64,000 nt of DNA. It comes from Octopus vulgaris. Lineage: Eukaryota. The stretch is taken from positions 57,412,001-57,476,000 of the forward strand of contig OX597815.1 in the NCBI GenBank assembly GCA_951406725.2. The letters are read 5' to 3'. Every line of letters starts with the position of its first letter. The first letter of the stretch is position 1. Both the position numbers and the translations under genes were made by a program. Under the pieces are notes generated by a model that did no database searches, was not told where the DNA came from, and worked only from the letters and a program-made list of their open reading frames with translations. Shown here in pieces: positions 1,901 to 63,155 of the stretch.

Positions 1901-2118
1901 CTTGGAAATGGATGCATGCTATTCAATTAAATAATAACATAAATAATATATATATGTATATATATAAATAGATGTGTGTATTTTACCCTTGTTAACAATT
2001 AACATGGAAAAAATAGATAAATAGTTACCAGGGTAGCAAAAAATCACAAAAGTAAAAAGTGTGCAACTTGTTTTTAAAGGTAGAAACTCCAGGTTTATGT
2101 GAAATATTTTGTATAATA

Positions 2119-3341: not shown

Positions 3342-3425
<84 letters not shown>

Positions 3426-5053: not shown

Positions 5054-5124
5054 TGCTGAAATCCAGGATTGAACCAGGGACTTTTAGAATTTTAGTCTTA
5101 GACTCTCTCATTGAGCTATGTCAT
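5054..5124 (-). pseudogene. tRNA-Phe(GAA) pseudogene, intronic, antisense to MAP3K4
   Basis: Minus strand gacatagctcaatgagagagtctaagactaaaattctaaaagtccctggttcaatcctggatttcagca is colinear with eukaryotic tRNA-Phe; anticodon and acceptor stem mutated. Confidence 0.75.
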
Positions 5125-5984
5125 GTATTTCTAAATGGATTCATGACTTGAAGAAATATATATTTACTGTCATTACTATGAGAATATTTTACCCATGCAA
5201 ACCAAACGAGTAGCTTTAAATACTGGGTAGAAAATATAAGCCTGTTATGTTTTTATACAATTTTACATCTTTCTTTTCTGTTTTAAATTTGTCAGAAATA
5301 ATAGAACATATATATATGTATACTATACCTGAAACTACAGGCTTGAGGAGCAAACTCCTTAACTATGTCTGCCTGTGCAAGCACACAAACACAAACACAG
5401 ATATAGTGTGTGTGAGACTGTACATGTATATACATCATGAATAACGTTTGCGTTAATAGCATTTAGTTATTGAGTTACATGTTCAGTGAGAATATTTGAA
5501 CTAGATTGATATCTCTTCATGCCTTTTGAATGAGAAGCAAATGTAGTTTTGTTATCTTACCGTTTTTACCAATATATATATATATATATATATATATACG
5601 AGCAAAATGCCCCCCATCCAATGGATGGTGCTGAGTTGTCAAACATTTAAACCAAAATCCACATCTCCTCAATGGCCAACATTCCTCTCGCAGGCACGAC
5701 ATCATTGCATGTGTCTTCCATCTGAAGCTTCAAAAAATGATGGATTTGCTCTGGCAAATCATTGCAATTACCACTAATGTCATCAGTCAAACTTTTTAAG
5801 ATAGGGAAGTGAGAGGATGTTGTCTCAGTTTTAGACGCAGCAAATGATTAAACTACGTTAAATTTACAAATTACAATTTTCTCAAGAAAGCCAAGAGAAA
5901 AAAATGTTTTATTTTGACACATTCTACCAGTATACGAAGTTTAAAATTGTTTAGTTAACTAGAAATTGTGTTGAAAACTGCCAT

Positions 5985-6685
5985 TCAAAAGGAAAAGATC
6001 CAGAAAATGCAACAAGCATTTGCATAGATTGAAAAAGGTCTTTCTATGTTTGAGGATATAGATCCAAATGCTCAATGCTTTTCCAAGATTATGGGGGCTT
6101 GTCATGAAGCTTTTGCTCCTTATAATGTCATTCTTGAGGAAAAGAAGATGACAGTTCAAGAAACTCTCAACCGGTTTTTTTAAGTGCATTGAACAACAAG
6201 AACAGCCAGAGAACAGCTGTTGATGTTGACTGTCTACAGCCATTTACATCTGTGATATAAACCACCAAATTGGATGTACGTATTGGTAAATTTAAAATAA
6301 TTAAGTTTTTTTTTACTATTGCAAAATAATAATTATTGAATTTGTTTTTTAAGCTTAAAAAAGGCTTTTATTTTACCATGTCTTATTGCAAACTGCATTC
6401 ATAAATAAAGTGTCTGCAATGTACAGTAAACACCACCAAATTGTATTTGTAAATGTAGATTACATTTTTTTTTACTGTAGTGTATTAAAAAATAAAAATT
6501 ATTTGTTTGTAAGCTTAAAATAGGTTTTTATTAACCATGTATTATTATTCATACATAAAGTACAGAACTGGAAATGATTATTATTGGTTTAGCCTAGAGA
6601 CAAGTTAATTCGACTTGAGTCGTTTTTTTACTTAAGCCGTGTCTCCTTGAAATAATTAACAATGTAGGGTGAGGTATATGCATTT
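5985..6685 (+). mobile_element. Tigger/pogo DNA transposon 3' remnant
   Basis: + translation near 6000-6180 (AFA*IEKGLSMFEDIDPNAQCFSKIMGACHEAFAPYNVILEEKKMTVQETLNRFF) is typical of Tigger transposase C-termini; Tigger-like terminal segment near 6610-6685. Confidence 0.6.
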
Positions 6686-6841
6686 ATGTATGTATGTATA
6701 TATATATAGATGTACTTGCATAGCGAGTGACTTGATCTGAGATCATGTGCTGGAACAAAAACAATTGCAGCGTGGAAGGTGTTTATAAACCATTTAAAAA
6801 ACACACAAAACCGTTAGATTCACTTCAACATTTAAATTTAA

Positions 6842-6895
6842 TTTGTCAAAATTTAATTTTCGTCGCTCTGAGACTGTGATCTGTTCACTGATAAA
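6842..6895 (-). ncRNA. Hammerhead-ribozyme-like motif with variant G3:C8 core (partly decayed)
   Basis: Minus: TTTATCA-GTGAACA-GATCAC-loop-GCGAC-GAAAAT-TAA-ATTT-TGACAAA; stems I, II and III are recognisable, with mismatches in stems I and II. Confidence 0.45.
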
Positions 6896-7520
6896 GCTTC
6901 GTGCTGCATCTCATATATATATACATACATACATACATACATAAATGCATATATATGTATGTGTGTGTGTGTATGAATATCTGTGTGTGTGTGTAAATAC
7001 ATGACAAAGCTATATATAAACACACTCTCAAATTGCATTTGTATCACAGCTATTATTCTCACTTCACCTCTCTTTACCACTTCCTCTCACTCATTGCTAT
7101 TACTTTCTCTCACTCCTGCCTACTGCATGATTTTGGACAAAAAAAATATATATATATTTATATAATACAAATAAGAAAACGGAGAAACAATCTAGTTGGT
7201 TCATCAGCTTTCGGATATTAGAATGTTGACTTATTTATTTATTTAACAAAAACAAGAACCTTAATAGCGTACATATACACATTATAATTCAATACTTTTA
7301 AGATAAGAATACAATTATAAAAATCATAATATAAATTATTGAAAGCATTAAATCACTCCTTACAGCTGTTTCAGCATATAAACACACACACAAATATATG
7401 AAAATACTACACTCATTATTATATTAGATTAGTTTAGTGTGTGTCTTTATGTTTGTGTTTGTCCCACTTCACCATCTGACAACCAGTGTTGGTTTATTTA
7501 CATCCCTTTAAGTACTCGAT

Positions 7521-7565
<45 letters not shown>

Positions 7566-8171
7566 TTATGAAAATAAACAGCAGAAAACTCCTCACAAAA
7601 TGGGTTTTCTGCTGCTCTAGATAATGTAAAATGTAGGTGTGTATTACTGGGTCACAGCTATTGAATATTATCCCTCTAACACCTAGATACTCTTCATATC
7701 ATAGTGCTGAATATAATATTTGAACTCATGATTTTTGTAGTCCAGTAATATAACCACTCTACAGAGTGCATTTTATATCAAATAAGATGACATGTAAACA
7801 CCAACTACAGGAGCTAAAACAGCATCTAACTTGTAAACAGTATCTGCAGGAGCTGAAAAAAGATGAGTCCATTGTCTTATTAAAAAAGATTGTGTCTTTA
7901 CTGTGGTGCATGCTGAAAACCTCCTGTTACTTTGTTGACATAGAACTACAGTAAAAGTATATCAAAGAAAAATTTTAAATTAGTAATTATTCTGAGTCTC
8001 TTAATCAAGAAGCTGTATTGCCTCTTGATCAAGTGTCATCAAGAGGCCTACTTAAATCTTTATGAAAAGGGGCATTGTGCTGATATGTTTATTCGGTTAG
8101 AAACTTACTTTTAAAAGAAACCTGATAATTTTCATACAATTTCAATTTATGTTTTTTTTCTTCATTTACAG

Positions 8172-8198
8172 GTTTCTGATGAAGACATGAACCTCTGA
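8172..8198 (+). CDS. MAP3K4: MAP3K4 terminal coding exon (VSDEDMNL*)
   Basis: Strong acceptor ttttttttcttcatttacag; a phase-0 join gives HPFPK|VSDEDMNL*, paralleling recalled human HSFVK|VCTDEE*; candidate AATAAA at 8612. Confidence 0.75.
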   Translation, partial: VSDEDMNL

Positions 8199-8969
8199 GC
8201 GCATTACTACTAAAACCTTTTTGAGAGACAGTGGATATGAGAAAAAGTAACAGATCCTTGATAATAATTTTTATGATTGATAGGAAAGACAAATGAAAAT
8301 TGGGAGAGAATCATGTTTTTGTAATGTCCATTTAGTGACATCTAAATTAAAACTTGTTCCAATTACTTCTTATATTTAAAAATTTCTTAGGAATTTTTAG
8401 ATAATATTTGGAATCTGCTCCACAGTGATATGTTGGTTAAATGCAACATGTATTTGGCATATGTCTTCATGGAAAAAATGCTTTTCAAAATATTCCTTTT
8501 CATTTCAAAACATGACTAAGATACTTCTCTGTTTTAGAGAAATGTAATATAAATTAACTTTCTTCTTTTCTTTTTTTTTTTTTTTTGATGGGGTGAGAAA
8601 TTTATTATTATAATAAATTTAAATATATAAAATGAAAAAAAATTACCACCACATTTCTTTTCTAGTGAACTAACTTATGATCCTAAGAGAGATGACCTGG
8701 ACAAATGAATCAGAATTGTCAAAAAAACAAAGAAAGGACTTTGTAATTGAATCTTTACCAGAATCTAAAAATATAGGCAAATACACAGGCATACAGTTCT
8801 AAATGATTTTAGGTTTACTATTTATATATAGGTGCAGGTAAGAAGCTTGCTTCTCAACCACATGGTTATGAGTTCAGTCCCATTGCATGGCACTTTGGAC
8901 AAGTGTTTTCTGTTGTCTCAGGCCAACAAAAGCCTTGTGAGTGTATTTGGCAGACAGAAACTGAAAGCC

Positions 8970-9660
8970 CATGCCAAAACAGATAACAGAACATGGCATA
9001 GCCTTCTGGCTTGCCGGCTCTTTTCAAAGCATCCGCCCCATGCAAGTATGGAAAACAGTTGTTAAATGTTGTTGTTGTTGATGATGATAATGATCAACTT
9101 TATCTGAGTATGCTAATGTCCTATCTGATCATTTTAATTATTGGTAACTTCCTCTTTCCCACACGTATTCCATACAATGGCTCCAATAAATACAAGGAAT
9201 AAAATGGATAAGGAGAATCATACATTAAAGTCATAGATAATGGTCTCACAGTATTGGGTGATAATTACCTAAGTACAGTATGGGCAGGTAATATGTACAT
9301 ATAATTTCATAAAGATATAGGATTATAACCATGTTAAAATGGTTAGCCAACATACAATGGAAAATATAGGAATCCAAGGTATTCATCTTATAGATCAGGC
9401 TTGCTTGGCACAATTAGAAGTAGCACAACAGTAGCTAAGCAAATAATGAACAATAAAGGTGAGGTTTGTGGGAAGGAGGAAGTTACCAATAATTAAAATG
9501 ATCAGATAGGACATTAGCATACTCAGATAGAGTTGATCATTATCATCATCAACAACAACAACATTTAACAACTGTTTTTCATACTTGCATGTGGCGGATG
9601 CTTTGACAAGAGCTGGCAAACCAGAAGGCTATGCCATGTTCTGTTATCTGTTTTGGCATG
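8970..9660. repeat. Inverted repeat, ~194-bp arms (8970-9163 / 9467-9660)
   Basis: Arms are near-identical reverse complements; mirrored ORFs 9011+ and 9395- give nearly the same peptide. Confidence 0.9.
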
Positions 9661-10214
9661 TTTTCTATGGCTAGATGCCCTCCCTAGCGCTAACCACTTC
9701 ACAGAGTGTACTGGGTACATTTTTCATGGTACCAGTACCAGTAGGATCAGCAAGTAACTTGCAAAATAAGACAAAGGTCCCTTGACTAGAGGGAGTAGTT
9801 GATGAGAGGTTAAAAGAATAATAGGTGTCTTGCTGTAGAAGCAATACAAGGCTATTCTAGCTGGAGAAAGCAGAAGGAGACTTGGAGAGAAAGGTAGAGA
9901 TAAAGAGAGTGAAAGAGATGGTGGCTGATATGTGTCTGGACAAACCCTCAAGTTGCAGTGGGGAAGAATAATAGGTGAAGAGATACAAAGGATTGGACTG
10001 GTTAAGGTGATAGAAGGGAAAATTTCATAAGAATGTAAGGAGAGATGGCAAGATGGGCTATAGGTGTCTGTAGTAATTGAAGGTGAGGAGTGTAGGAGAG
10101 TTTCAGGGGAAGAGGGTTATGTTAGATATGTGTGGGCATTGGGAGAGATAAGGGATGAAAGAGGTGTAAGGATGGATGGAGTATAGTAGAGAAAAGAGAG
10201 CATCGCTAGAGAAA

Positions 10215-22671: not shown

Positions 22672-25600
22672 AGGGCTATTAGACAAAAGAAACAGGCTTG
22701 GAAAGATTGGAAGAACGGTGGTAGCAGGGAAGTGTATCAGACTGCCAGAAGGGAAGCTAGGAGACAGGTCTATCTAGCCAGAGGGGAAGCAGATAAGAAA
22801 AAATTTGCCAATGTTCTGCGCCGTGAGGATGAAAGACTTGAGGTATTTCGTGTTGCAAGACAGTGTGTGAGAGAGAATCGTGACGTGGTAGGAGAGAAAT
22901 GTGTTCGCAAGGATGACGGTTCACTTGCGCTAAATGAGGATGCAAAGAGAGAGGCTTGGAGACGCCACTATGAAAGGTTGCTGAATAAAGAAAATGAATG
23001 GGATAAAGAGAGTCTGCCGAATGTTGACCCAACAGAGGGACCAGCAATCCGAGTTAACAGTTCATCATCATCATCATCATCATCATTTAACGTCCGCTTT
23101 CCATGCTAGCATGGGTTGGACGGTTCAACTGGTGTCTGGGGAGCCCGAAGGCTGCACCAGGCCAGTCAGATCTGGCAGTGTTTCTACAGCTGGATGCCCT
23201 TCGAGAGTGTAGTGGGTGATTTTATGTGCCACCGACACAAGTGCCAGACGAGGCTGGCGAACGGCCATGCTCGGATGGTGTTTTTATGTGCCACTGACAC
23301 AGGTGCCAGACAAGGCTGGCAGACGACCACGCTCGGATGGTGTTTTTATGTGCCACCAACACAGGTGCCAGACGAGGCTGGCGAACGGCCACGCTCGGAT
23401 GGTGTTTTTATGTGCCACCGACACAGGTGCCAGACAAGGCTAGCAGACGACCACGCTCGGATGGTGTTTTTTATGTGCCACCGACAATTGCCTTAGTAGT
23501 TAAGGCAATTACAAGCATGAAAACAGGGAAAGCCCCAGGCCCATCAGGAATTACTGCAGAGATGCTCAAAATATCTGGTAGTGTCGGCTATAGCCTAGTC
23601 ACTCGTATAGTTAACCAGGTGAAACACGAAGGAGTCATACCCAATGACTGGTGTAGCAGCATAATAGTCAACTGCTACAAAGGTAAAGGTGACGCCCTAG
23701 ATACAAATAACTACAGGGGTATCAAGCTGCTGGATCAGGTAATGAAGGTTACGGAGAAGGTTATAGCCCAACTAATTAGAGAGAGAGTTAGCTTAGATGA
23801 GATGGAGTTTGGGTTTGTGCCAGGGAAAAGTACTACTGATGCTATATTCCTGGTAAGACAGCTGCAGGAGAAATACCTAGCCAAAGATAAGCCCCTGTAC
23901 CTGGTTTTTGTTGACATGGAGAAAGCCTTTGACAGGGTCCCCCGATCCCTTATCTGGTGGTCAATGAGGAAACTAGGGATAGATGAATGCTTAGTGAGAG
24001 CTGTGTGAGCCATGTACAGAGACGCTGCTAGTAAGGTGAGGGTTGGCAACGAGTACAGTGAAGAATTCCGGGTAGAGTTTGGGGTCCACCAAGGTTCAGT
24101 CCTCAGTTCACTCCTATTTATCATAGTCCTCCAGGCAATAGTAGAGGAATTCAAGAGAGGATGCCCCTGGGAGCTCCTCTATGCTGATGACCTTGCTCTA
24201 ATTGCTGAGTCACTATCAGATCTGGAGGAGAAGTTTCAGTTGTGGAAACAAGGATTAGAATTGAAGGGCCTTAGAATCAACCTAGCCAAAACCAAAGTCC
24301 TAATAAGTAGGAAGGTGGACCAATCACAAACGACTTCAGGTAGATGGCCCTGCTCGATCTGTAAAAAAGGTGTAGGTAGAAACTCTATAAGGTACACCAA
24401 GTGTAAGCTATGGACACACAAGAGGTGCAGCAATGTCAAAGGAAGGCTAACTAGGAAAATAGTTTTTGCCTGTGGCAGATGCTCAGGAGCAATAAACACT
24501 GGAAATGTGCAGAGACCAACTTCTACCATGTTCCAGGGAGACAAACTAGAAGTAGTTGATAGCTTCCGCTACCTAGGTGACCAAGTCAGTAGTGGGGGTG
24601 GGTGTGCTGAAAGTGTAACTGCTAGAGTAAGAATAGCCTGGGCAAAGTTTAGAGAGCTCTTACCCCTGCTGGTGACAAAAGGCCTCTCACTCAGAGTAAA
24701 AGGCAGACTGTATGATGCATGTGTACGTACAGCCATGCTACATGGTAGTGAAACATGGGCCGTGACTGCTGAGGATATGCGTAAGCTTGCAAGAAATGAA
24801 GCCAGTATGCTCCGATGGATGTGTAATGTCAGTGTTCATAATCGACAGAGTGTAAGTACCTTGAGAGAAAAGTTGAACCTAAGAAGCATCAGCTGTGGTG
24901 TGCAAGAGAGACGTCTGCACTGGTATGGTCATGTGACGAGAATGGCTGAAGATAGTTGTGTGCAAAAGTGCTACACCCTAGCAGTTGAGGGAACCTGTGG
25001 AAGAGGTAGACCCAGGAAAACCTGGGACGAGGTGGTGAAGCACAACCTTCGAACTTTAGGTCTCACCAAGGAAATGACTAGAGACCGAGGCCTATGGAAT
25101 TATGCTGTGCGTGAGAAGACTCGGCAAGACTAGTGAGGCCATAACCCGTGGCCTCTACCTGGTATGTAGCCAGTCGACTTATACATACCTTTCCTTCTTG
25201 GGACACAAAACTCTACTTGTGAAGACCCGTTGAGGCAAGTGAAAATCAAACAATCAAAATCAAAATCAAATCAGATATCAGAAAGCAGAACCAAAATCGG
25301 AGTCGATCAACATCAACGGAAATTGCGGCTGTGATACCAGTGCCGCTGTGATACCAAGCGAACCATCCGATTGTGGCCATTGCCAGTGCCGCCCCGACTG
25401 GCCTCCGTGCCGGTGGCACATAAAAGCTCCATCCGTTCGTGGCCGTTGCCAGCCTCGCCTGGCCCCCGTGCCGGTGGCATGTAAAAAACATATCCGTTCG
25501 TGGCCGTTGCCAGCGCCGCCCCGACTGGCCTCTGTGCCGGTGGCATGTAAAAGCACCATCCGTTCGTGTCTGTTGCCAGCCTCGCCTGGCCCCCGTGCCA

Positions 25601-25792
25601 GTGGCACGTAAAAGCACCATCCGCTCGTGGCCGTTTGCCAGCACCGTCTGGCACCTGTGTGGGTGGCACGTAAAAAGCACCCACTACACTCGTGGAGTGG
25701 TTGGCGTTAGGAAGGGCATCCAGTCGTAGAAACACTGCCAGATCCATGCTAGCATGGAAAACGGACGCTAAATGATGATGATGATGATGATG
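22672..25792 (+). mobile_element. RTE-clade LINE, 5'-truncated, RT nearly intact
   Basis: GKAPGPSG, NYRGIKLL, FVDMEKAFD, GVHQGSVLS, YADD, FRYLG; one in-frame TGA at 24006-24008; interrupted at 23062-23487; 3' UTR array and (ATG)n tail. Confidence 0.93.
23062..23487 (-). mobile_element. RTE 3'-UTR-type element inserted antisense into the RTE ORF
   Basis: (cat)n tail at 23062; the ORF resumes after it (GPAIRVNSS ... LVVKAITSMKTGKAPG). Confidence 0.8.
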
Positions 25793-36999: not shown

Positions 37000-38676
37000 C
37001 TGTCTACTACTGCAAAGCAGCACATAGATGATGTTCAAGAAGTAAACAAAATTTGAACAACAATGGTCGTGAACCCCCTCCATTTGATAGATCAGTACCT
37101 CCAATGCCTAGATTGGTCATCACTCGGGATGAAGTCGACCGAGTTATTTAAGGCCTCAATGTCAACAAGGGTCATAGCCCTGACAGCATACACCTACACG
37201 TTATCAAAGTGTTGGCTCCGGTCATCTGCGAACCTTTAACACTTCTATTCAATATGTCATTGGCGACGGGTGTTATACCTGCGGACTGGAGAACAGTGAT
37301 AATCTGCCCAATTTTCAAGAAAGGGAGCCATGAAGACCTGCTTAACTACCGACCGGTTTCCCTTACTTCAATAATCAGCAAGATGTTCGAAACCATCCTT
37401 AAGAAAAGTATGTTGCTCCACCTCCAAAACACAGCCTCTATCTCTGATTCCCAACACGGCTTCGTGCCGAAGAGATCATGCTTGACCAACTTTCTGGTAA
37501 TGGAAGAATTGGTGACGCGTATCCTGGATGATGGTGATGCTGTTGACATCGTTTTATTGGACTTTGCCAAAGCTTTTGACTTGGTTAACCACCGCCTATT
37601 ACTTGTCAAGCTTCAAGCATATAGTTTCCATCCGGATATTGTATGATGGGTTGGTGCCTTCCTCTCAGATCGCTCCTTCCAAGTCCAAGTTAATGGTTCG
37701 CTGTCCGACGTCTCCAGTGCGAGCAGTGGCGTGCCTCAAGGTTCAGTGCTTGGGCCCTTATTGTTTTTAGTCTTCATATATGACTTGCCCGACGACCACA
37801 CGCAACACACCCTTCTATTTGCCGATGATGTCAAACTGGTCGCTCCTCGTGGTGATATAGATGATCTTCGTCGATGCCTCCACCAAGTTTGGAGATGGTC
37901 TAACGAATGGGACCTGTGTCTGAACGTGTCAAAGTGCTGTCATCTGCCTGTTGGCTCTTCTGCAACTCAACTTGATTTCGAGCCGGGTTGTCTGCTGCTG
38001 GAGAGGACCGACCAGGTAAAGGACCTGGGTATCTTGGTGGATTCTTCCTTTTCACCTTCGGCCCAGTGCGTCCATGCTGCCAACAAAGCACACGGAGTTC
38101 TGTTTTTGATTCGACGGTCATTCGGAATGCTCACAGCAGCCATATTCCTACTGTTCTATGTCACGCTGGTGAGACCCAAGCCTCTTCTTATCTCCTCAAA
38201 GACATACATCATTTCAAAAGAGTCTAGAAGTTGGCTACCCGCATGGTTCTTGGTCTCAAGCATTTGTCTTATGAAGAAAGGCTGAAGACGCTCAACCTTT
38301 ATTCTCTAGAAAAACGCCGCCACCATGGTGATCTCATTCTTGCTCACAACATCATAAGCGGAAAGTGTAACCTCTCGAAAGAGCTGTTCTTCACTCCTGC
38401 TCCAGAGCGTTGGCTGCGGGGTCACTCTGAAAAGCTCTATCTGCAACGATTTCATCTCAATCGAAGGAGAGGGGCTTTCTCCGTCCGGGTTGTGGATCCA
38501 TGGAATAAGCTGCCGGACGAGATAGTGAAGATGCCGACGACCGCTCGTTTCAAAGTCTCTCTTGACCAGAAATGGTCTGAACTCTTTGCATGAACACCTT
38601 CCCTGTACATAACTCTATGTCACCCTACATGGCCTTGCTTTTTGCTTTTTGAGCCAAAAAATTAACTTAACTTAAC
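37000..38676 (+). mobile_element. CR1-clade LINE, 5'-truncated
   Basis: NYRPVSLTS, LDFAKAFD, PQGSVLGPLLF, FADD, LSYEERLKTLNLYSLEKRR; (aactt)n tail. Confidence 0.9.
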
Positions 38677-42328: not shown

Positions 42329-42366
<38 letters not shown>

Positions 42367-42462
42367 ATCCAAACATGAAAACACAAAGAGAAAACACAAC
42401 AACGCGAGGATGTGGAACAAGTATAGTGTTATTGGACGCTCAGGAAAGAAAAGAAAGGAGGA

Positions 42463-42495
42463 TTTAACGTTTCGAGTGGAGCTCTTCGTCAGAAA
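42463..42495 (-). ncRNA. Minimal type-I hammerhead ribozyme motif in a Penelope-like terminal repeat (~42362-42538)
   Basis: Minus: TTT-CTGACGA-A-GAG-CTCCA-CTC-GAAAC-GTT-AAA; palindromic AACGTT stem III. Confidence 0.6.
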
Positions 42496-42534
42496 CATAG
42501 GAAAAGGAAAGATCCAAGGAAGGGAAGATGGAGG

Positions 42535-42572
<38 letters not shown>

Positions 42573-43677: not shown

Positions 43678-44714
43678 GTGAGAATGGATGAAGATAGGTG
43701 TGTGAAAAAGTGCCACACCCTGGCAGTTGAGGGGGACCTGTGGAAGAGGTAGACCCAGGAAAACCTGGGTCGAGGTGGTGAAGCACGACCTTCAAACTCT
43801 AGGTCTCACCAAGGAAATGACCAGAGACCGAGACCTATGGAAGTATGCTGTGCGTGAGAAGACCCGGCAAGACCAGTGAAAACAATCAAAATCAAATCAT
43901 ATATCAGAAAGCAGGGGTTAAGTGACCCATCCGATCGTGTCCGCTGTCAGCCTTGTCTGGCACCCGTGCCGGTGATACGTAAAAGCACCATTCGCTCGTG
44001 GCCGTTTGCAAGCTCTGCCTGGCCCCCGTGTCGGTGGCACATAAAAGCACCATCCGTTCGTGTTCGTTGCCAGCCTCGCCTGGCCCCGTGCTGGTGACAA
44101 GTAAAAGCACCGTCCGTTTGTGGCCATTTGCCAGCTCTGTCTGGCCCCGTGTTGGTGGCACGTAAAAGCACCATCCGTTCGTGTCCGGTGCCAGCCTCGG
44201 CTGGCCCCCGTGCCGGTGACACGTAAAAGCACCGTCCGTTGGTGCCGGTGACACGTAAAAGCACCGTCCGTTCGTGCCGGTGATACGTAAAAGCACCGTC
44301 CGTTCGTGGCCGTTTGCCAGCTCTGTCTGGCAACCGTGTCGGTGGCACGTAAAAGCACCATCCGTTCGCGTCCGTTGCCAGCCTTGGCTGGCCCCCGTGC
44401 CGGTGACACGTAAAAGCACCGTCCGTTCGTGGCCGTTTGCCAGCATCGCCTGGCCCCGTGCCGGTGACACGTAAAAGCACCATCTGTTCGTGGTCGTTCG
44501 CCAGCTCTGTCTGGCACCTGTGCAGGTGGCACGTAAAAAACACCCACTACACTCGCGGAGTGGTTGGCGTTAGGAAGGGCATCCAGCCATAGAAACACTG
44601 CCAGATCTGACTGGGCCTGACGAAGCCTTCCAGCTTCACAGACCCCAGTTGACCCGTCCAACCCATGCTAGCATGGAAAGCGGACGCTAAATGATGATGA
44701 TGATGATGATGATG
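43678..44714 (+). mobile_element. 5'-truncated RTE LINE with expanded 3' UTR array (~11 units)
   Basis: RT end colinear with 24933-25137, then tandem units and (ATG)n. Confidence 0.88.
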
Positions 44715-48790: not shown

Positions 48791-49111
48791 AGAATATATA
48801 AATAATACATAGAATTCAGGATAAAATCACATTAATGATTATATCAAGTGGCCAGCAGCAAACCTTGTAGGTAATTTTATATACTAAATTAATAATTATA
48901 TTAAAGGGATCAGGAGAAAGCTTTCTTGTACATGCTGAATGTAAATATCAAAGGCTCTAAAAAGCCATTGTATAACTCCTATAAAACCAGTGTTTTGTAG
49001 TAGTCATATAGAGGTCTTTTAGTGCCTTTGGCGTCTCTTTCAGCATGTAGGAGAAGATTTTTTTCCTTGCTCTCTTTAATATAATTATATATATAACATA
49101 TATATGAATGT

Positions 49112-49164
<53 letters not shown>

Positions 49165-49592
49165 TAAATACATATATATATATGTATACATAATCAAGGT
49201 GCAGAAAGTGCATACTCCGAATGAACAAGGTAATGTAATCCGATTGTAGAAAGAATTCTGCACATTAGGTACATACATATATACAGATTTATATATATAT
49301 ATATCATCATATAATATCTGTTGTCCATGCTGGCATAAGTTGGATGGTCTGACCAGGGCTGGCAAGCTCAAAGAATGCATCAGATTCCATATATATATAT
49401 AGATATATCTTTTAAATTCTTTTATGGTAATGTTAAGGATATGCAAATAAGGCTCCTATTTCATTATGTTGGCTAGTGTTTGATGATACTAATGGGTCAG
49501 TTTTTCAGGGTTGCTGCATGGTTATACTGATATAATGTAGAATAAATATAATAATAACAATAATTCTAGGATGGAATTTATGAATATCTAAT

Positions 49593-49729
49593 GCATCGTT
49601 ACGCGCGTTTCCACAAATGATACGACTTTAATATCAAAGTCTGTATCCTTGGGATGATTACAGTATAGATTGTAGTATCTGTGGGCATCCAGTTGATCAT
49701 CATCATTGATTCATTTCATCAGGCAATAC
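49593..49729 (-). ncRNA. Hammerhead-like motif with greatly extended stem II, inside a Penelope-like inverted repeat
   Basis: Minus: GTATTGC-CTGATGA-(~105 nt)-GAAAC-GCGC-GTA-ACGATGC. Confidence 0.5.
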
Positions 49730-50444
49730 TAAATATGTTGCATATGCCTTGAAGAAATCCTGGAAATAATCACACCCAGGGAAAATGTGATAGACAGTGA
49801 GATGATCATATCATGTAAACATAAGAACAAGATATTATCATGGAATTTGAAAAAATATTTTGAAACAAAGTAACAAATTATAGAACAGATAAGGAACCTA
49901 AACAAATAAATGAACATACCAATGTTTAAGATGATGCACACTATAACAACAGAAACAGTGAAAAAGTCACCATAAGAGGGTAGTATTAATCAATTCAGTC
50001 AACAAACCCCATTGTGCAGCAGCTGTTGGGTTCAGAATTTACTGAGGAAAGTCACATCTTCAATGAAATAGTACAAAGAAATGTACTACTATTTGCTGAA
50101 TGAATGACTATCCTTAAAATCTGCAGAATGAATAGAAAATAAATCCAACACCACAACACCCACACCTCCATCTCCATATTACTACCATTCCTTCCTCTAC
50201 ACCCATCATCAACCTCCCCCTACCAAGTACACACAGAGATTGGCCTTCATACTGGCAAGAAGGGATAAACATCCCACTCTGATTCATTTCATGAGGCGAT
50301 ACTATATGAATCTCTGATTCATGTAGTATCGCCTCATGATACTGTAATCATCCCAAGGATACAGACTTTGATGTTAAAGTCATGTGATTTGTGGAATTCC
50401 TAGAATTATTGTTACTATATATATATAATATATATATTATATAT

Positions 50445-51222
50445 GTGCAGGAATGGCTGTGTGGTAAGTGGCTTGTTTACCAACCACATGGTTCCGGGTT
50501 CAGTCCCACTGCGTGGCATCTTGGGCAAGTGTCTTCTGCTATAGCCCCGGGCCGACCAATGCCCGTGAGTGGATTTTGGCAGATGGAAACTGAAAGAAGC
50601 CTGTCGTATATATGTATATATATATATGTATGTGTATATGTTTGTGTCTGTGTTTGTCCCCCTAGCATTGCTTGACAACCGATGCTGGTGTGTTTACGTC
50701 CCCGTCACTTAGCGGTTCGGCAAGAGACCGATACTGGGCTTACAAAGAATAAGTCCCGGGGTCGATTTGCTCGACTAAAGGCGGTGCTCCAGCATGGCCG
50801 CAGTCAAATGACTGAAACAAGTAAAAGAGTAATAGGAGTGGCTGTGTGGTAAGTAGCTTGCTAACCAACCACATGGTTCCGGGTTCAGTCCCACTGCGTG
50901 GCATCTTGGGCAAGTGTCTTCTGCTATAGCCCCGGGCCAACCAATGCCTTGTGAGTGGATTTGGCAGACAGAAACTGAAAGAAGCCTGTCGTATATATGT
51001 ATGTGTGTGTTTGTGTATCTATGTTTGTCCCCCTAGCATTGCTTGACAACCGATGCTGGTGTGTTTACGTCCCCGTCACTTAGTGGTTCGGCAAAAAGAG
51101 ACCGATAGAATAAGTACTGGGCTTACAAAGAATAAGTCCCGGGGTCAATTTACTCGACTAAAGGCGGTGCTCCAGCATGGCCTCAGTCAAATGACTGAAA
51201 CAAGTAAAAGAGTAAAGAGTAA
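50445..51222 (+). mobile_element. Two head-to-tail full-length tRNA-SINE copies (50445-50830, 50833-51222)
   Basis: Near-identical units sharing variants (ggcatcttggg, gtcactt, agtcccgggg). Confidence 0.88.
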
Positions 51223-52935
51223 AAGTACATATATATATATATATGTATGTATATATATATATATATATATATTTATTTAGAGCTGCATATTACTCTACCT
51301 TTGGTATTTGAGTACTATTTTTTCCACCTTGTTTTGCATTTATGCACTTACTTGTGTGTGTATCAAAATCATCATGATCATCATTTAAACATCCACGTAT
51401 CCTTGCTTGCATGAGTTAGACAGTTTATTGAGGCAGAATTTTTACAATCAGATGTCTTTCCTATCGCAAACCTTTACCTGTTTCCAAGTAAGGTAATATT
51501 TCCCCACAGCCAAACGTGTTTCCATAGAATACTGGAAATGGATGACACTGTTTCTATGACAGTGACACTTGTTTACAACTACAATATGATGTCTAGACAA
51601 GAACACAAACATATACACACTCACACATCTCAAGCTATAGATACATATATGATGGGATGCTTTCATTTTCTGTCAATCAAATCCACCCACAAAGCTGTGG
51701 TTGGCCTGGGGCTACAGTAGAAGACACTTGCCCAAGATGTCATTGCAGTGCGAGTGAACCCGAAACCATGTGGTTGGGAAGCATAGAGCCACATACACAT
51801 ACAAATGCACACCCCTATATGCATATACATATAAAAACAAAACAAAATAATGAGTATTACAATTACAGCTGAGTATTCTAAGCCAGAATTACCAGGACAC
51901 ACTGACAGATACAGCCCATACAACCAAATTTTATTCACATGACTTGGGCCAACCCAAGCATATGGTAAAAGTGGCAGAGCACTGAGATTAAACCCAGGAC
52001 GTAGTGATAGAGAAGCAAAGTTCTTACCCATTTGGCCACCCACACACATCTGTGTAACTTTCATTACAACACTAATGGATCTTAATAAATCTAAATGGAA
52101 ACAGTAACAGACAGCTAAGTTGGCCGTGTTAAGGTGTTGGACAATTAGCAATTCATATATCAGCAGCATTGCATTGCATATATATAATATTTCTTTATAT
52201 ATAACCATAGCTCGGTCCACTTCGCTGTAAACTGTATACCACAGGTAATTATAACTCCTGGCTTAAAGCAACAGAAATGCTGTATAAGTGCTTCTAATTT
52301 AGGCATAAGGCCAGCAATTTTAGGGTAAAAGAGTTAAGTCAGTTATATCAACCCCTGGTACTTCACTGGTACTTATTTCCTGGATAGATGAAAGACAAAG
52401 TTGACCTCTGTGACCCTAAGTTGACCCAGGACATAAAGAACCAGAAGAAATACCACAAGGCATTTTGTTCCATGATTCTGCTAAATGACAGCCAATGGCA
52501 TGCTGTGAAATATTTCCTTAGTATGTAGTGCAGAGTTCAAATCAGAGCAAAAGTATAACCTATAGAACACAGGTTTCTTAAGTGGGTATCAGTGCTTTTT
52601 AAGTGGGGAGTGGGGTTAATGAAGGTGTTGCTGGGTCGTTACGGTTGTTGAATTTATTGTTATAAATAGCAATAGCATTGTCAGATACACCCTCCTGGGT
52701 AATGTCATAGGGTTGAAGGTGAGACGGGTGACAGGGGGTTACAATGGATGAGATTTATGTTTCAGAATTCCTTGTGCAAAGGACTGGGTTCTGTTAATGT
52801 TACCTCGCTTAAATACATCACATGGAAATGAAGCTTTTAGTGATGTATAAATGACTCAACATCACAATCTTAGTTGCTTTGCCTTGTATAGGATCTAGAA
52901 ACTGAGTCTTAAAGGAAGTGTCATGTATTTTTCAG

Positions 52936-53715
52936 TTAGTTTGATTTCATTTTGTTTTCTAAGGTAGGATTTATAATTACGAGTTCAGAACCTTCGATTT
53001 TGACCTCTTCGTAAAGCCAGGGTCGTTCACAGCGACATTCCGTACCGCATTTCTCCGAGCCACATTTCAGGCAAGGGAAGTGACAGCCGGGACAATCCAT
53101 ATCCAAACAGTCACACATATCTATACCCGTAGATATCAAACATCCGGACTCATCGTACATTTGCCACTCATTGCACTTCTTCCGCTTCCTTTTCTTTTTT
53201 TTAGTCGCTTTGAAGCGAGCAGAGGATTTCATGGTGGGAATAGCTTTAGTTCTTGTCACAGCTTTAGAAGACGTTGTCACTGAACGACCATTTCTCCCAC
53301 CCGATCTAGTAGTTACCGCCAGAGCGTTCTCGTTTTTCATAGTTTCATTTGCCCTCGTTACCGAACTACCATCAGTACTGTTCTTATCGAGGGTTTTCTC
53401 GTCAGAAGAACAAGTTTTATTGTTTATCGAAGGAGGTCGTCGTTTTTTCCGGTCATATTTTTCTGTTAGATTAACATCCTTCACATCTGTCGTCTTGAAC
53501 CCTTCATTTACCTCTTTCTTCCCGCCATCAACACCTTCATTTATGTTGGTGTCTTGTCGATACTGGCGCCGTGAAGCCCTAGTAACCATCATTTTCCTTC
53601 GGGAATTATCACCTCCCCCATCACCACTTTCATCATCATCATCATCACCACCAGACTCACTTTGTAATTCTTTGCCGTCTTTTTTTTCCGAACTCGTATC
53701 TGCCGCTTTCATCAT
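52936..53715 (-). CDS. ARL14EP: ARL14 effector protein-like (C11orf46/ARF7EP), 259 aa, single coding exon
   Basis: C-terminal YDESG...DMCDCLDMDCPGCHFPCLKCGSEKCGTECRCERPWLYEEVKIEG is the Cys-rich ARF7EP_C domain. In-frame TAATAA lies just upstream of the ATG, and a splice acceptor ttcttttctacag lies 24 nt upstream. Confidence 0.9.
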   Translation of the reverse strand: MMKAADTSSEKKDGKELQSESGGDDDDDESGDGGGDNSRRKMMVTRASRRQYRQDTNINEGVDGGKKEVNEGFKTTDVKDVNLTEKYDRKKRRPPSINNKTCSSDEKTLDKNSTDGSSVTRANETMKNENALAVTTRSGGRNGRSVTTSSKAVTRTKAIPTMKSSARFKATKKKKRKRKKCNEWQMYDESGCLISTGIDMCDCLDMDCPGCHFPCLKCGSEKCGTECRCERPWLYEEVKIEGSELVIINPTLENKMKSN

Positions 53716-54807
53716 CTTTCTTGCAAACTGTTTTTATTACTGTAGAAAAGAAGTTGTGCCTTTGACATTTGTCACTCTACTAAAACAGTTAGTGTAATTA
53801 CCATTAATTAACATTAAACAGTTTGTTTTCAAGATATTTCCAACTTCAGGCAGCAAAACAGAGAAGAAATTATTGGATGTATAATGATATTCTAAGTTAT
53901 CGATGTCCTTTAATTATTGTCAGTTTTTTATTGTTGCTCTTCCCAAAAGTTAAATCACGATTGTTTCTTGCTGGTTTTGTTTTGTGTGTATATATATATC
54001 GTTTAAATATTTGTATATACTGACAATAAATTGAATCGAGGTGAACGGCAAAGTAACTTTGAATGTAGGTTGATGAGAAACAAGGAAGAAAACTAAATAG
54101 TTTTTTTTTTCAACTTGGCAAGTTGTAAGTTGACATGTGGAACGTGGAAGTTAAAATAATGACTTCATCATCAAAGAAAAAATTATAAGCAACTCACAAC
54201 TGCTATTCTGTAATGAAATGATTAAAGCGTCCCATTCAGTACTAAAATATATGTATATACCGATATCTCAATATATTTCTAATAAATCTAAATCTAACGA
54301 TAAATCGGATATGTAGTGGTAAATGGGTTCCAACCAAGATTTATCTTTCTTGTATAAATGTTTATGTAACTCTCCTCAGCATGGCGAAGTGAGGTAAATT
54401 TACTTCAAACACAACTAGGTCTGGCGATTATGGCTGTTTATTATTGTGTATTTCCAGACACTCCTTTAATAAATCCTGTTTGTTGATGCTTGAGATATAA
54501 AGGATAGAAGTGAGGTCAACTCGTCAGTTTGATAAAGCGGCACTTCTCCAATTAAATGACATGCAATGAATAAAAGAGGAATCTATTTTTAAATATTTTA
54601 TCCTAAAAAATAAAACAGAAACGGGAAGCGGGCACTCGTAATATATAAACAAACATGTCGGACGATACAAGGGGCGATAATTTACTTCTACAATAAGGTA
54701 TTATAAATGATGCGAGAGGCCCGACAATATCGTCTGCGAATTGTAAGAAGACCGTTTCACAATCATTAATAAATCTCTGAACGAGATATAAATAGTAACC
54801 GCTCAAC

Positions 54808-55306: not shown

Positions 55307-55449
55307 TCACAATCTGTTTCTTGAAAAACAAAAATAAAAATTACAAAACTTGCATATGTCTTGAACATATTTACTGTATTGTTTTATAATCATTTCTGTC
55401 GTATATCACAGTATCATAAAATGGGCGAAGGTAAGCGTGCGCACACCAC

Positions 55450-55609
55450 CTAACCCTAAACCTAATCCTAACTCTAAACTTAAGTAACCTTAACCCTAAT
55501 CCTAACCATAACACTTAGCCATAACCCAGACCCTAATCCTAACCCTAACACTAACCTTAACCCTAACTCTAACCCTAACCCTAACACTAACCCTAGCCCT
55601 AACCCTAAC
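55450..55609. repeat. Degenerate (CCCTAA)n interstitial telomere-like tract
   Basis: ~26 hexamers of ccctaa/cctaac variants. Confidence 0.8.
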
Positions 55610-59541: not shown

Positions 59542-59580
59542 TATTAAAGCTTTCGTTCCTCCCTAGAACTTGTCAAATAC
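59542..59580 (-). ncRNA. Minimal hammerhead-like motif with U3:A8 core
   Basis: Minus: TAT-TTGACAA-GTTC-TAGGGAG-GAAC-GAAAGCTTTA-ATA; weak stems I and III. Confidence 0.35.
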
Positions 59581-59589
59581 CTCTTAGAT

Positions 59590-60050
59590 GACATAAAGTC
59601 ACACAATTTGGGAATCATAGCCATAAGTGAGACTAGACTCCATAATCCACAGGCCCGAAAGTCCATGTTTGGTGAACAGTTTAACATTTATTTTCCTCCC
59701 TGTCTGCTGAGGATGGGAGGTAGTGGCACTGCAGTACTTTTTCGTAAGAGTCTGGATCTCGAAGTAAAGATGAAATTCATAGACCTGGAGGGTAGACTGG
59801 TTGTCCTGGATGTCGTCGACAGCAATGGATGTGCTTTTCAATTCCTATCAGTCTATGCACCACCTTTAACAGGTTGGCTGGATTTCTTTCGATGTCTAGA
59901 AGTATTCCTAGGAACGTCTCATCCTTTACTTTTAGTGGGGTATTGGAATGCTACGTTGGACACACATCTAGACCACATGGGCAGAGACAGGAATAGATGG
60001 GGATGCAAATACCTCAGAAACCTGATCAGATACTTTCAACTAGTATGCAT
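59590..60050 (+). mobile_element. Tx1/L1-like APE endonuclease fragment
   Basis: IIAISETRL...GTAVLF...DLEGRLVVLDV...SVYAP...LVGYWNA. Confidence 0.75.
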
Positions 60051-60248
60051 GTAATTATTGCAAATATATAAAAAATATATGTGTGTGTGTTTGTATATAT
60101 CATCATCATCAACATCATCATCGTTTAACGTCCGTTCTCCATGCTAGCATGGGTTGGACGGTTCGACCGGGGATCTGGGAAGCCAGAAGGCTGCACCAGG
60201 CTCCAGTCTTATCTGGCAATGTTTCTACAGCTGGATGCCCTTCCTAAC

Positions 60249-60295
<47 letters not shown>

Positions 60296-60482
60296 GTCTT
60301 GTGGGATGTCTTGTTGGCGAAGTATGTGTTAGTGATGCACAGGTTATGGTATGTGCAAAATTCAAGTAGTCTCTGACCATTGTCATTCATGTTGCCAATA
60401 CCAAAACACATACACTTACATATATACATACATATATATACGATTGATTTGTTTCAGTTCCTGTCTACGAAATCCATATATA

Positions 60483-60719
60483 TATATAATATAATTCGAG
60501 ACAAAACCACTATTTTAAAATCAAACAAGGAAAGACTTAATCAATACATAAAATTTGATACTGATTAGAAGATCGAAAATCCACCTGAAGAATGTCGGTA
60601 GCAGACATGAAACAATTGTAGTGGCGGTTTATTTAATTTATATTAAAATTTTATGTATTGATTAAGTCTTTCCTTGTTTGATTTTAAAATAGTGGTTTTG
60701 TCTCGAATTATATTATATA
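60483..60719. repeat. Perfect ~74-bp inverted repeat (60483-60556 / 60646-60719), Penelope pseudo-LTR-like
   Basis: Exact reverse complements flanking a hammerhead motif. Confidence 0.88.
60581..60624 (+). ncRNA. Type-I hammerhead ribozyme, canonical core
   Basis: CCAC-CTGAAGA-ATGTC-GGTAGCA-GACAT-GAAAC-AATT-GTA-GTGG; all three stems pair and cleavage is predicted after A60620. Confidence 0.8.
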
Positions 60720-60798
60720 ATATTTTACTATAAAATTGGATTTAACCCTAAATCTGATTTTTCCCTGTAAATTTGGATTCATTCCCTAATATTTATTA

Positions 60799-60854
<56 letters not shown>

Positions 60855-60859
60855 GTATA

Positions 60860-61435
60860 CACACACACACACACAACACACAAAGATAAATTGATAGATA
60901 CAACTGAGTGGGCAAACAAAAATATGAGACACTGCGTAAGTGTTTTTTTATATTTTGATAAGCGTGGTACTTATTCTATCAGTTTCTTCTTGTGAAACCA
61001 GTAAGTTATGGGGAAGTAAATAAACGAACACCAGTTGTGAAGCAGTGATGAGGGAGAAACACAAAGACACACACATAGACTTACATATACACATACATAT
61101 ACATACAATTGATTTGTTTCAGTTTCTGTCTACAAAATTCACTGACAAGGCTTTGGTTGGTCTGAGGCTATAGCAGAAGACACATGCCAAGTTACCACAC
61201 AGTGGGACTGAACTGAGGACCATGTGTTTTGGAACCAAGTTTGTTAACACACAGCCACACATGCACCTATGTATGTGTGTGTGTGTGTGTGGGGGGTATG
61301 TGTGTATGGGTGTATATATGTATGCATGTATATATGTGTATATATATGTGTACATATTACATGTACATCTATATATATACATCTAGACATACATGTATAT
61401 CTATAGAAATACATATAGATGTACATATATATATA
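60860..61435 (-). mobile_element. Third, partial copy of the composite Helitron interior (captured SINE)
   Basis: Colinear with 47170-47600, including the non-SINE flank caaagataaattgatagatacaactgagtgggc. Confidence 0.7.
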
Positions 61436-61437
61436 TA

Positions 61438-62580
61438 AGGTAGGTCTGGAGAGATTGTAGAGCTGCTTGAATGGAGACGTGTGGATGTATGCTGTATCCA
61501 GGAAGTAAGGTGGAGAGGAGGTTCCGCTAGGCTCCTCACAGGCAAGGAACACAGGTACAAGATTTTCTGGGCAGGGAACACTGACGGGGTCGGGGGCGTG
61601 GGTATACTTCTTGCGGAGAAATGGGTAGGTAAGGTAATCGAGGTAGTCAGAGTAAGTGACAGAGTAATTAAAATTAGATTAGTCCTTCACCACAGGACAG
61701 CTACCATCATCTCGGCATATGCCCCTCAACCAGGGCTACTGGAAGGACAAAAAGACCAATTCTATGACACCCTATTGCGGACTACCTCATTGACAAATGA
61801 CAGTGACCTTCTCTTCGTGGCAGGTGATTTCAATGGACATGTCAGACGGCATGTCGGGGGCTTCCATGGCGTCCATGGAGGCTACAGTTTTGGCTCTCGT
61901 AATGAGGAGGGAACCAGGCTGCTGGAGTTCTGCGATGCAAATGACCTTATGGTCTGCAATACCAACTTCAGGAAACCCACCTCTCACCTAGTCACCTACC
62001 GTTCTGGCAGACACACCAGCCAGATTGACTACATCCTTGCCAGAAAAAGGGAAAGAGGGCTGATTATAAATGCCAAAACCTTTCCAGGCGAAGAATGTAC
62101 TCCTCAACATAGATTAGTAGTTACCGACTTCAGGATCAGAGCTAAATGGTTGCCCAGAAGAAGACCAGCTTGGAGGAGAAGGGTCTGGAAGCTTAAAGAT
62201 CCTGCAAATGGACAGAGATTTAGAGACATACTACTCGAAGCCTTTGATGAAATAGAAGGGGATATAGCTTCACTTAATGTGGAAGACAACTGGAGATTTC
62301 TACGGGACAATCTGCTGACAGCCACTGACCAGATCTGTGGATGGAGCAAAGTACCATCTCAACCCAGAGTAACATGGTGGTGGAACACTGTGGTTGACAG
62401 GGCTATTAGACAAAAGAGACAGGCTTGGAAGGACTGGAAGAACGGTGGTAGCAGGGAATTGTATCAGACAGCCAGAAGGGAAGCTAGGAGACAGGTTTAT
62501 TTAGCCAGAGGGGAAGTGGATAAGAAAACATTTGCCAATGTTCTGAGCCGTGAGGATGAAAGACTTGAGGTATTTCGTGA
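61438..62580 (+). mobile_element. RTE LINE, APE endonuclease region, interrupted by an LTR element
   Basis: Open frame DVCCIQEVRW, ISAYAPQ, GDFNGHV, SQIDYIL, QHRLVV; overlaps 22672-22852 and diverges at 62580. Confidence 0.92.
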
Positions 62581-63155
62581 TGTGGAGGGAGAGAAGTGTG
62601 TAGTGACGCTATACAACAGCGCGCGCGCGCAACGCCCTTTTCTGATTCGCGCGTGTTTTCATCACCAAGAGGAAATATTGCTATCGTGGAATTAGCTGAT
62701 TGGCTAGGAAAAGCGACCCTTAGAAAAGAGGCAAGGGAACGCAAAAACCTTGACGAGAGACAGCGTCCAGCAGAGACAGCAGAAGGCCTTTGATACAAGC
62801 AGACGTATGTATATTTCTCTCTGTCCAGCTTTGATAGCAGTCGGCCGAAGGTTTTTACCAAATTGTTGTGGACAACATCATCTTCATATTCCGCGGCCAT
62901 CTTTAACACGTTCTGTTTTTAGCGGCTGAACATTGTAAATATTACAATTCGATTAACTTTCAGCCTTGCGCGCCCAGAACCAAGGATATCAGATATACCA
63001 CTGATCTCTCACCATAAAACAATAAAGTATATCTATTTTTTACGTCTGCGTTTTGTGTTTCTTTGACTGGTAGAGTCTGGATATAAAAGCAACGGAAAGT
63101 GATTGCTTCTCGCACCCCCCAAAAGGTCCGGAGAAGATATTCACATTTCCTTACA
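62581..63155 (+). mobile_element. 5' LTR of a Gypsy/Ty3 retrotransposon
   Basis: Begins with TG where LINE homology stops and ends TTACA immediately before a PBS; internal AATAAA at 63021. Confidence 0.8.

What the first reader, a model, noticed from the sequence alone, without database searches (positions are those of the whole stretch)
60483..60790. Intact hammerhead ribozyme centred in a perfect inverted repeat
All conserved nucleotides and three stems are present (stem I CCAC/GTGG, stem II ATGTC/GACAT, stem III AC-AATT-GT palindrome, GUA triplet). The motif is flanked by identical 74-bp inverted arms and TA tracts. This matches a recently inserted, 5'-inverted Penelope pseudo-LTR, or a small non-autonomous ribozyme-bearing retroelement.
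Basis: partly seen in the sequence, partly recalled or inferred. Interest (0 to 1): 0.7.

Follow-up and report, generated by a model that had tools for sequence, protein, structure and literature searches.

The report
Head-to-head Penelope stub with hammerhead
This 310-base piece of octopus DNA is one copy of a very abundant repeat that carries a complete hammerhead ribozyme motif between two mirror-image arms; it is likely the short, non-coding end of a Penelope-like jumping gene pasted in head to head, a known insertion shape, and its RNA is predicted to cut itself well only as a pair.

Summary
Observation confirmed. A type I hammerhead motif (60581-60624, all core bases, predicted cut after A60620) lies between perfect 74-bp inverted arms, followed by a ~70-nt one-sided tail, inside a (TA)n tract. 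0 of 300 shuffles gave such a motif. The host is an Octopus species. Contigs from six public runs show a very high-copy family. The mirror is not a fixed family feature: the outer arm end next to (TA)n recurs, while the inner join varies, and most seen joins leave the ribozyme out. This copy's join uses six shared bases (AAATTT). The family's ribozyme layout (U·U closing stem II, palindromic stem III) matches 14 of 25 published Hydra-clade Penelope-like families, which also target (TA)n, but no coding partner could be linked. Best reading: a young stub of a Hydra-type element, made from an uncut RNA by two reverse-transcription starts. Cleavage is untested; the dimer is the predicted active form. 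This shape is published, and this scan has noted it many times on other octopus DNA. New member of a known kind.

The parts
60477..60488 (.). left (TA)n target remnant, merging with the TATATA at the outer end of the inverted arm
   Evidence: loose ends before 60476 end in TA repeats in 42 (X1), 37 (X4) and 11 (X8) contigs
60483..60556 (-). short inverted arm, an exact reverse-complement copy of 60646-60719
60551..60556 (.). 6-nt palindromic overlap (AAATTT) shared by the end of the inverted arm and the start of the sense copy; likely the microhomology of the join
   Evidence: family depth steps up at 60551 (X1 5,560 to 31,173; X2 1,966 to 9,828; not in X3); pieces begin at 60551-52 in X1, X2, X4, X8; same hexamer at 60646-51
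60551..60790 (+). long sense arm: family sequence with ribozyme, arm-matching segment and tail (3' end approximate, masked from 60787)
60581..60624 (+). type I hammerhead motif; stem I 4 bp, stem II 5 bp (4 bp plus U·U in most of the family), palindromic stem III; predicted cut between 60620 and 60621
60554..60647 (+). predicted imperfect long hairpin that carries the ribozyme at its tip and whose base lies at the two AAATTT hexamers; weak
   Evidence: MFE; pair probabilities about 0.6; z = -0.39 against shuffles for 60560-60645
60646..60719 (+). segment duplicated in the inverted arm; ends in TATATA (60714-19), the recurring short end
60720..60790 (+). one-sided tail of about 70 nt with a predicted 13-bp hairpin (60732-60761); deepest-covered part in X2, X4 and X8 and shared with relatives that differ upstream of 60710
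60797..60841 (.). right (TA)n target tract; no target-site duplication can be discerned

Best explanation
This is one copy of a very high-copy octopus repeat with a complete hammerhead motif, a perfect inverted arm and a one-sided tail in a (TA)n tract, and it is likely a non-coding stub of the end repeat (pseudo-LTR) of a Hydra-type Penelope-like retrotransposon, likely made by copying an uncut RNA twice. Shown: the anatomy; the high copy number; a recurring outer end at 60719 next to (TA)n; sense copies that run on through the tail; a variable inner join; a 6-nt overlap at this copy's join. Inferred: a Penelope-type RT/GIY-YIG protein nicked both strands of a (TA)n repeat; one 3' end primed at the long site (about 60790) and copied to 60551, the other primed at the short site (60719) and copied to 60646; the two cDNA ends, both AAATTT, annealed and served each other as primer for the second strand. 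The template was not cut at A60620, since the copy reads through that site. The ribozyme is predicted to be weak as a monomer and to fold as a dimer through the 8-nt stem III palindrome; a lone copy has no partner in cis, so it is likely silent cargo here. The symmetry around the ribozyme is then a by-product of insertion, not a selected RNA structure.
For: Depth falls from tail and arms (X1 about 0.5-1.2 million summed) to the ribozyme (93,000-141,000 at 60573-60614), and to 1,300-1,900 across this copy's arm-to-ribozyme join against about 50,000 just inside it. 14 of the 15 joints shown (4 more hidden) join an inverted arm to a sense arm, at 13 different sense start points between 60609 and 60727; none of these keeps the whole ribozyme. 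Both arms carry the same minority allele (60681 A: at most 8% of X1 depth, under 1% of X4; its mirror 60521 T: at most 16% and 4%), as expected from one template. Within 60581-60624 all listed changes fall in loop II or at pair 10.1:11.1 (5 substitution sites, 5 indel sites), none in the core or in stems I and III. Dimer = cofold minimum, -21.8 kcal/mol against -10.6 for two hammerhead monomers; monomer stem III probability 0.03-0.06. Hydra clade: U...U closing stem II in 14 of 25 families of File S2, (TA)n preference, ribozyme 87-425 nt from the 3' end in 24 of 25 (my count); here about 230. Inverted 5'-truncated pLTR plus one-sided tail is the published shape (PMC8557442, PMC3846280). The anole Penelope protein cuts and extends both strands, starts at two sites that bound the tail, and uses uncut RNA (PMC11167929).
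Against: No coding partner was linked: no genome is held, no GIY-YIG family among 180 of 194 six-frame segments scanned, and 0 of 8 short probes from this element occur in the Hydra supplement, so it is not Hydra-1_Obim. The tail (about 70 nt) is longer than the published 30-40 bp. Contig depth is not copy number, and subfamily divergence also lowers depth upstream. The joints table cannot show joins whose sense arm reaches beyond 60551. The perfect arms and the 6-nt overlap fit fold-back self-priming as well. In the anole system the start sites are not homologous to the cut DNA, whereas here both ends merge into TA-like sequence. No stem covariation was seen except at 10.1:11.1, and a young family would look conserved without selection.
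Confidence: 0.6

Rival explanations
1. Same insertion machinery, but the family is a short non-coding rider (retrozyme-like or SINE-like) whose RNA starts about 30 nt before the ribozyme and borrows a Penelope-type protein; no coding version exists.
For: Depth drops steeply over 60547-60566 in all three laid DNA-type runs, and the loose ends before 60551-60563 differ from one another, as if many copies begin there. No ORF is linked. Animal retrozymes are described as pLTR-derived non-autonomous elements (bioRxiv 10.64898/2026.07.22.740005).
Against: Only one ribozyme copy of this family in the window, no tandem unit; no joint that goes back from tail to head among the 15 shown; a steep depth gradient, not the flat cover of a tandem unit. 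An RNA start before the ribozyme also fits a pLTR-driven transcript of a coding element.
Confidence: 0.22
2. Same family identity, but the mirror arose by fold-back: one cDNA ending in AAATTT at 60551 annealed to its own AAATTT at 60646-51, copied itself, and was resolved by a cut at the internal TATATA (60714-19).
For: Explains the identical arms and the overlap; the two hexamers sit at the base of the predicted ribozyme hairpin. Self-priming was proposed for Penelope palindromes (PMC3846280) and endonuclease resolution for the tail (PMC8557442).
Against: In the cDNA fold the 3' hexamer is unpaired and 60646-51 is not among its top partners (best pair probabilities 0.04 or less). Two start sites bounding the tail and extension of both strands were measured in vitro for the anole element.
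Confidence: 0.13
3. A MITE-like or fold-back DNA element with fixed terminal inverted repeats that presents the ribozyme on a long stem, or a host-used hairpin RNA locus.
For: Perfect 74-bp arms; the RNA hairpin is very stable (-120.7 kcal/mol, z = -20.8) and the ribozyme fold costs only 1.0 kcal/mol within it.
Against: The join is rare in the family, inner ends vary, and about 70 nt of family sequence lie outside the right arm.
Confidence: 0.04

Closest known systems
Hydra clade of C-terminal-endonuclease Penelope-like elements, incl. Hydra-1_Obim of Octopus bimaculoides (Craig et al. 2021, PMC8557442)
   Same: (TA)n target; type I hammerhead near the 3' end with short stem I, 4-bp stem II closed by U...U (14 of 25 families) and a near-palindromic stem III; an inverted 5'-truncated copy is noted for Penelope-13_HM.
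   Different: Not Hydra-1_Obim: ribozyme strings differ and 0 of 8 probes match the supplement. No protein linked. Tail about 70 nt. Stem III is a full 8-nt palindrome with no odd loop base.
Typical EN+ Penelope insertion with inverted pLTR and optional tail (Pen2a_Av, PMC3846280; anole Poseidon PAc, PMC11167929)
   Same: Head-to-head inverted arm shorter than the sense arm, tail on one side only, overlap at the inner join (15 bp in Pen2a, 6 bp here), AT-rich target.
   Different: No ORF in the insert; tail about twice the published 30-40 bp; no discernible target-site duplication; both ends resemble the TA target.
Minimal and variant type I hammerheads of metazoan PLEs (Cervera and de la Pena 2014, PMC4209133)
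   Same: Full core, 4-bp helix I, palindromic helix III suited to a dimer.
   Different: No G10.1-C11.1 pair (A-U here, mostly U·U in the family), no lone bulge after A9, helix II 4-5 bp rather than 7-8.
Animal non-LTR retrozymes (PMC7229834; bioRxiv 10.64898/2026.07.22.740005)
   Same: Short, non-coding, high-copy, type I hammerhead.
   Different: Single, not tandem; inverted arm and tail; circular RNA not tested.

Membership tests
Type I hammerhead ribozyme | Core C3 U4 G5 A6 N7 G8 A9, G12 A13 A14, A15.1-U16.1, H17 | tested here: met
Type I hammerhead ribozyme | Helices I, II, III in type I order | tested here: met
   I and II predicted to form (0.79-0.97 alone; I 0.47-0.54 in context); III 0.03-0.06 as monomer, 8 bp in the dimer
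Type I hammerhead ribozyme | Match to an Rfam hammerhead model | tested here: not met
Type I hammerhead ribozyme | Self-cleavage after H17 | not testable with these tools
   needs an in vitro assay
Metazoan PLE minimal hammerhead (PMC4209133) | Palindromic 15.2-16.2 and loop 3; short helix I | tested here: met
   ACAATTGT; 4-bp helix I
Metazoan PLE minimal hammerhead (PMC4209133) | G10.1-C11.1 pair and an unpaired base after A9 | tested here: not met
   A-U here; U·U majority, U·G minority (3.5% X1, 12% X3), U-A in one contig
EN+ Penelope-like insertion | Inverted 5'-truncated pLTR with variable inner join | tested here: met
EN+ Penelope-like insertion | One-sided tail of 30-40 bp | tested here: inconclusive
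   one-sided tail present but about 70 nt; 3' end masked from 60787
EN+ Penelope-like insertion | Linked RT plus GIY-YIG reading frame | not testable with these tools
   no genome held; none in 180 of 194 window segments
Hydra clade | Insertion into (TA)n | tested here: met
Hydra clade | Canonical hammerhead near the 3' end, with the clade's common U...U layout | tested here: met
   a resemblance in layout only, no alignment
Hydra clade | Protein motifs RWK, DKT, CxCX5C, no CCHH; RT phylogeny | not testable with these tools
   no protein linked
Animal non-LTR retrozyme | Tandem units each with a type I hammerhead | tested here: not met
   single copy in the window; other loci not seen whole
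Animal non-LTR retrozyme | Circular RNA | not testable with these tools
   only contigs could be laid
MITE / fold-back DNA transposon | Fixed terminal inverted repeats at both ends | tested here: not met
   tail outside the right arm; inner joins vary

The most novel reading that the evidence does not exclude
The family is a thousands-strong, non-coding 240-nt RNA that starts just before its ribozyme and rides a Hydra-type Penelope protein; the ribozyme-bearing hairpin itself sets the insertion geometry, since one cDNA ends at its 5' base and the other at its 3' base, on matching AAATTT hexamers, and the U·U versus A-U pair at 10.1:11.1 tunes how much RNA stays uncut for copying.
Probability: 0.15. 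Interest if true: 0.6.

Novelty: new member of a known kind. Interest (0 to 1): 0.28.

Why it matters
How Penelope-like elements make their inverted ends and tails, and what their hammerheads do, are open questions (PMC8557442, PMC11167929). This copy is a clean record of one event: two ends, a 6-nt overlap and an uncut ribozyme. The family offers natural variants at the stem II closing pair for a simple cleavage test. But the shape is published, and this scan has already noted it in several other octopus families, so this copy adds an example and no new principle.

Tried and rejected
Own-genome search: no genome held, so no copy count, family alignment, covariance model or partner search. Rfam: no hammerhead match. 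Pattern scan of metagenome contigs: 2 hits, L001 and L002, near-identical to each other, without stem I and in sequence that looks protein-coding (judged by eye); rejected as chance. Viral contigs: 0. Window self-search: no second copy of this family. Pfam on 180 of 194 six-frame segments of 70 aa or more (14 left out, mostly other frames over the 62-bp tandem repeats): LINE-type RT and endonuclease pieces, no GIY-YIG. Sequencing runs: no RNA holder listed on record; X10 is RNA by guess only and contigs cannot show strand, start or level, so expression and a 5' end at 60621 are untested. Depth is flat across 60611-60626, but contigs that start at 60621 have only 25 nt in that stretch and may be dropped: inconclusive. 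Earlier-note look-ups by sequence and relatives found no member of this family. My first reading of the loose end before 60551 (3 contigs, X1) as the family's fixed upstream sequence was dropped: other loose ends there differ, and some resemble inverted arms. Clustering of 6 of 14 sense start points in 60641-60650 was not tested against a null; AT-rich near-palindromes there may explain it. Literature searches found no paper on this family; Repbase and Dfam could not be searched, and the supplements of the bioRxiv preprint (vertebrate-centred) were closed.

Full report
Observation. The motif is as described: stem I 60581-84/60621-24, core CTGAAGA 60585-91, stem II 60592-96/60604-08, GAA 60609-11, the 8-nt palindrome ACAATTGT 60612-19, predicted cut after A60620. 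The arms 60483-60556 and 60646-60719 are 74 of 74 complementary. A descriptor scan gave this one hit in the window; 0 of 200 shuffles reached its stem I and II lengths, and 0 of 300 combined them with an 8-nt palindromic stem III. Rfam has no matching hammerhead model. The element is lopsided: about 70 nt of family sequence follow the right arm before the (TA)n tract.

Host and setting. An ARL14-effector-like frame at 52939-53733 (-) is 96% identical to an Octopus bimaculoides protein, so the host is an Octopus species. The neighbourhood is microsatellites and LINE-type fragments. The element follows a piece of another repeat (60406-60476, 90% like 61071-61141) that breaks off at the TA tract. 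No genome is held and no second copy lies in the window. No GIY-YIG family was found among 180 of 194 six-frame segments.

The family. 20 of 24 listed runs hold the stretch or part of it, in 10 studies and four coded organisms; I laid six. On 60300-60900, 6,531, 1,525, 1,684 and 374 contigs were laid from X1, X2, X4, X8 (these counts include neighbouring repeats). Summed depth in X1 is about 0.5-1.2 million over arms and tail, 348,000 at 60615-35 and 93,000-141,000 over 60573-60614, while contigs at single joints have depths of about 20-130. Depth is not copy number, but the family is clearly large and most of it lacks the ribozyme or differs there. On 60535-60645 (270, 128, 142, 6 contigs from X1, X2, X3, X10), X1 depth is 49,000-52,000 at 60555-66, 31,000 at 60551-54, 5,600 at 60547-50 and 1,300-1,900 at 60535-46, so this copy's arm-to-ribozyme join is rare. 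Of 15 joints shown (4 hidden), 14 join an inverted arm to a sense arm at 13 different start points from 60609 to 60727. Many contigs join (TA)n to the outer arm end (42, 37, 11 in X1, X4, X8). The family therefore has a recurring short end at 60719, a long end near 60790 (masked from 60787) and a variable inner join. The ribozyme is 'centred' because the sense arm of this copy reached past it.

The join. The family's sense sequence reaches 60551 (depth step in X1 and X2, not X3; pieces from 60551-52 in four runs), so 60551-56, AAATTT, belongs to both arms. The same hexamer opens the right arm at 60646-51; a rough chance for six matches at this base make-up is 0.0008. Both arms carry the same minority allele at 60521/60681, which points to one template or later homogenisation. 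What lies before 60551 in other copies differs between contigs: either many copies begin there, as at an RNA start, or the continuation was not seen. I took the RNA-start idea from earlier notes (e1-9821833, e1-10332739) and could not test it.

The ribozyme. Within 60581-60624 the listed changes are at 60592, 60598, 60600, 60602, 60608 and indels at 60597, 60599, 60600, 60602, 60603: loop II and the pair 10.1:11.1 only. This is suggestive of selection, not proof: absent rows do not prove identity and a young family varies little. Most of the family has U·U at 10.1:11.1; this copy has A-U, a minority U·G, one contig U-A. File S2 of PMC8557442 shows U...U at this place in 14 of 25 Hydra-clade families (14 of 26 rows) and in 0 of 8 Chlamys/PLE-X rows, with short near-palindromic stems III; by my subtraction from Files S1 and S2 the motif starts 87-425 nt from the 3' end in 24 of 25 families, against about 230 here. 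It is not Hydra-1_Obim (exact probes can be split by line ends). Folding gives stem III a probability of 0.03-0.06 as monomer, and the hammerhead dimer is the two-strand minimum at -21.8 kcal/mol against -10.6 for two monomers. Published minimal PLE hammerheads cleave not at all as monomers and weakly as dimers; the anole one needs protein; 8 of 9 frog retrozyme dimers did not cleave. Activity here should not be assumed.

Mechanism. The anole Penelope protein cuts AT-rich DNA on both strands, extends both, starts at two RNA sites that bound the tail, and uses uncut RNA. Applied here (inference): a long cDNA from about 60790 to 60551 and a short one from 60719 to 60646, each anchored on one strand of (TA)n, anneal through AAATTT. 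This resembles L1 twin priming (recalled, not read), except that the arms duplicate each other. Fold-back self-priming predicts the same sequence, but the cDNA fold gives it no support. Against my reading: no protein partner, a tail about twice the published length, and ends that resemble the target, unlike the anole start sites.

Known and new. The inverted 5'-truncated pLTR with one-sided tail, the hammerhead in the pLTR and the (TA)n bias are published. Seven searches found no paper on this family; repeat databases were out of reach. Earlier notes of this scan report the same shape in several other octopus families; they are unchecked and not counted as support. Verdict: new member of a known kind, interest 0.28.

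Papers seen: PMC11167929 parts 1-2 of 4; PMC4209133 outline and parts 1-2 of 4; PMC8557442 passages, section 11, supplement part 2 of 59 and search hits; bioRxiv 10.64898/2026.07.22.740005 parts 1-3 of 5, supplements closed; PMC7229834, PMC3846280 and PMC6962438 passages only. Hammerhead numbering and gene conversion in palindromes are recalled.

Noticed in passing
window 42361-42541 (-), motif 42462-42496: A second, unrelated ~180-bp insert between two TA tracts with a minimal hammerhead motif (core CTGACGA, extra A, G10.1-C11.1, 3-bp stem II, loopless ACGT stem III, weak stem I) and no inverted arm; 3 of 300 shuffles gave a motif this loose, 1 of 300 with a palindromic stem III. Likely a solo Penelope pLTR of another family.
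   Followed up: partly
run X10, contig laid on window 60577-60620: One 207-nt contig of depth 984 in a run guessed to be RNA matches the ribozyme and leaves the family sequence exactly after the predicted cut site, with other sequence on both sides. One contig; could be a fragment in a host transcript, another family, or a copy of a cleaved RNA end.
   Followed up: no
window 60710-60790: The tail is joined to different upstream sequence before 60710 in 16, 15, 23 and 5 contigs of X1, X2, X4, X8: related subfamilies share it. It holds a predicted 13-bp hairpin (60732-60761), a candidate signal for the reverse transcriptase.
   Followed up: partly
window 52939-53733 (-): Open frame of 265 codons for an ARL14/ARF7 effector-like protein (PF14949), 96% identical to an Octopus bimaculoides protein.
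   Followed up: partly
window 2302-2513, 23215-23486, 25362-25681, 43927-44538: Four arrays of a related 61-62-bp tandem repeat, two of them within or beside the RT frames at 23298-25133.
   Followed up: no
window 23298-25133, 37152-38593, 59548-60054, 61439-62695: LINE-type reverse transcriptase and endonuclease fragments; 61439-62695 is an open endonuclease frame of 418 codons.
   Followed up: no
window 55449-55609: 27 degenerate copies of a CCTAAC hexamer, telomere-like.
   Followed up: no
window 3812-4036 (+): Weak match to the C-terminal part of a protein kinase domain (E 1.4e-4), possibly an exon.
   Followed up: no
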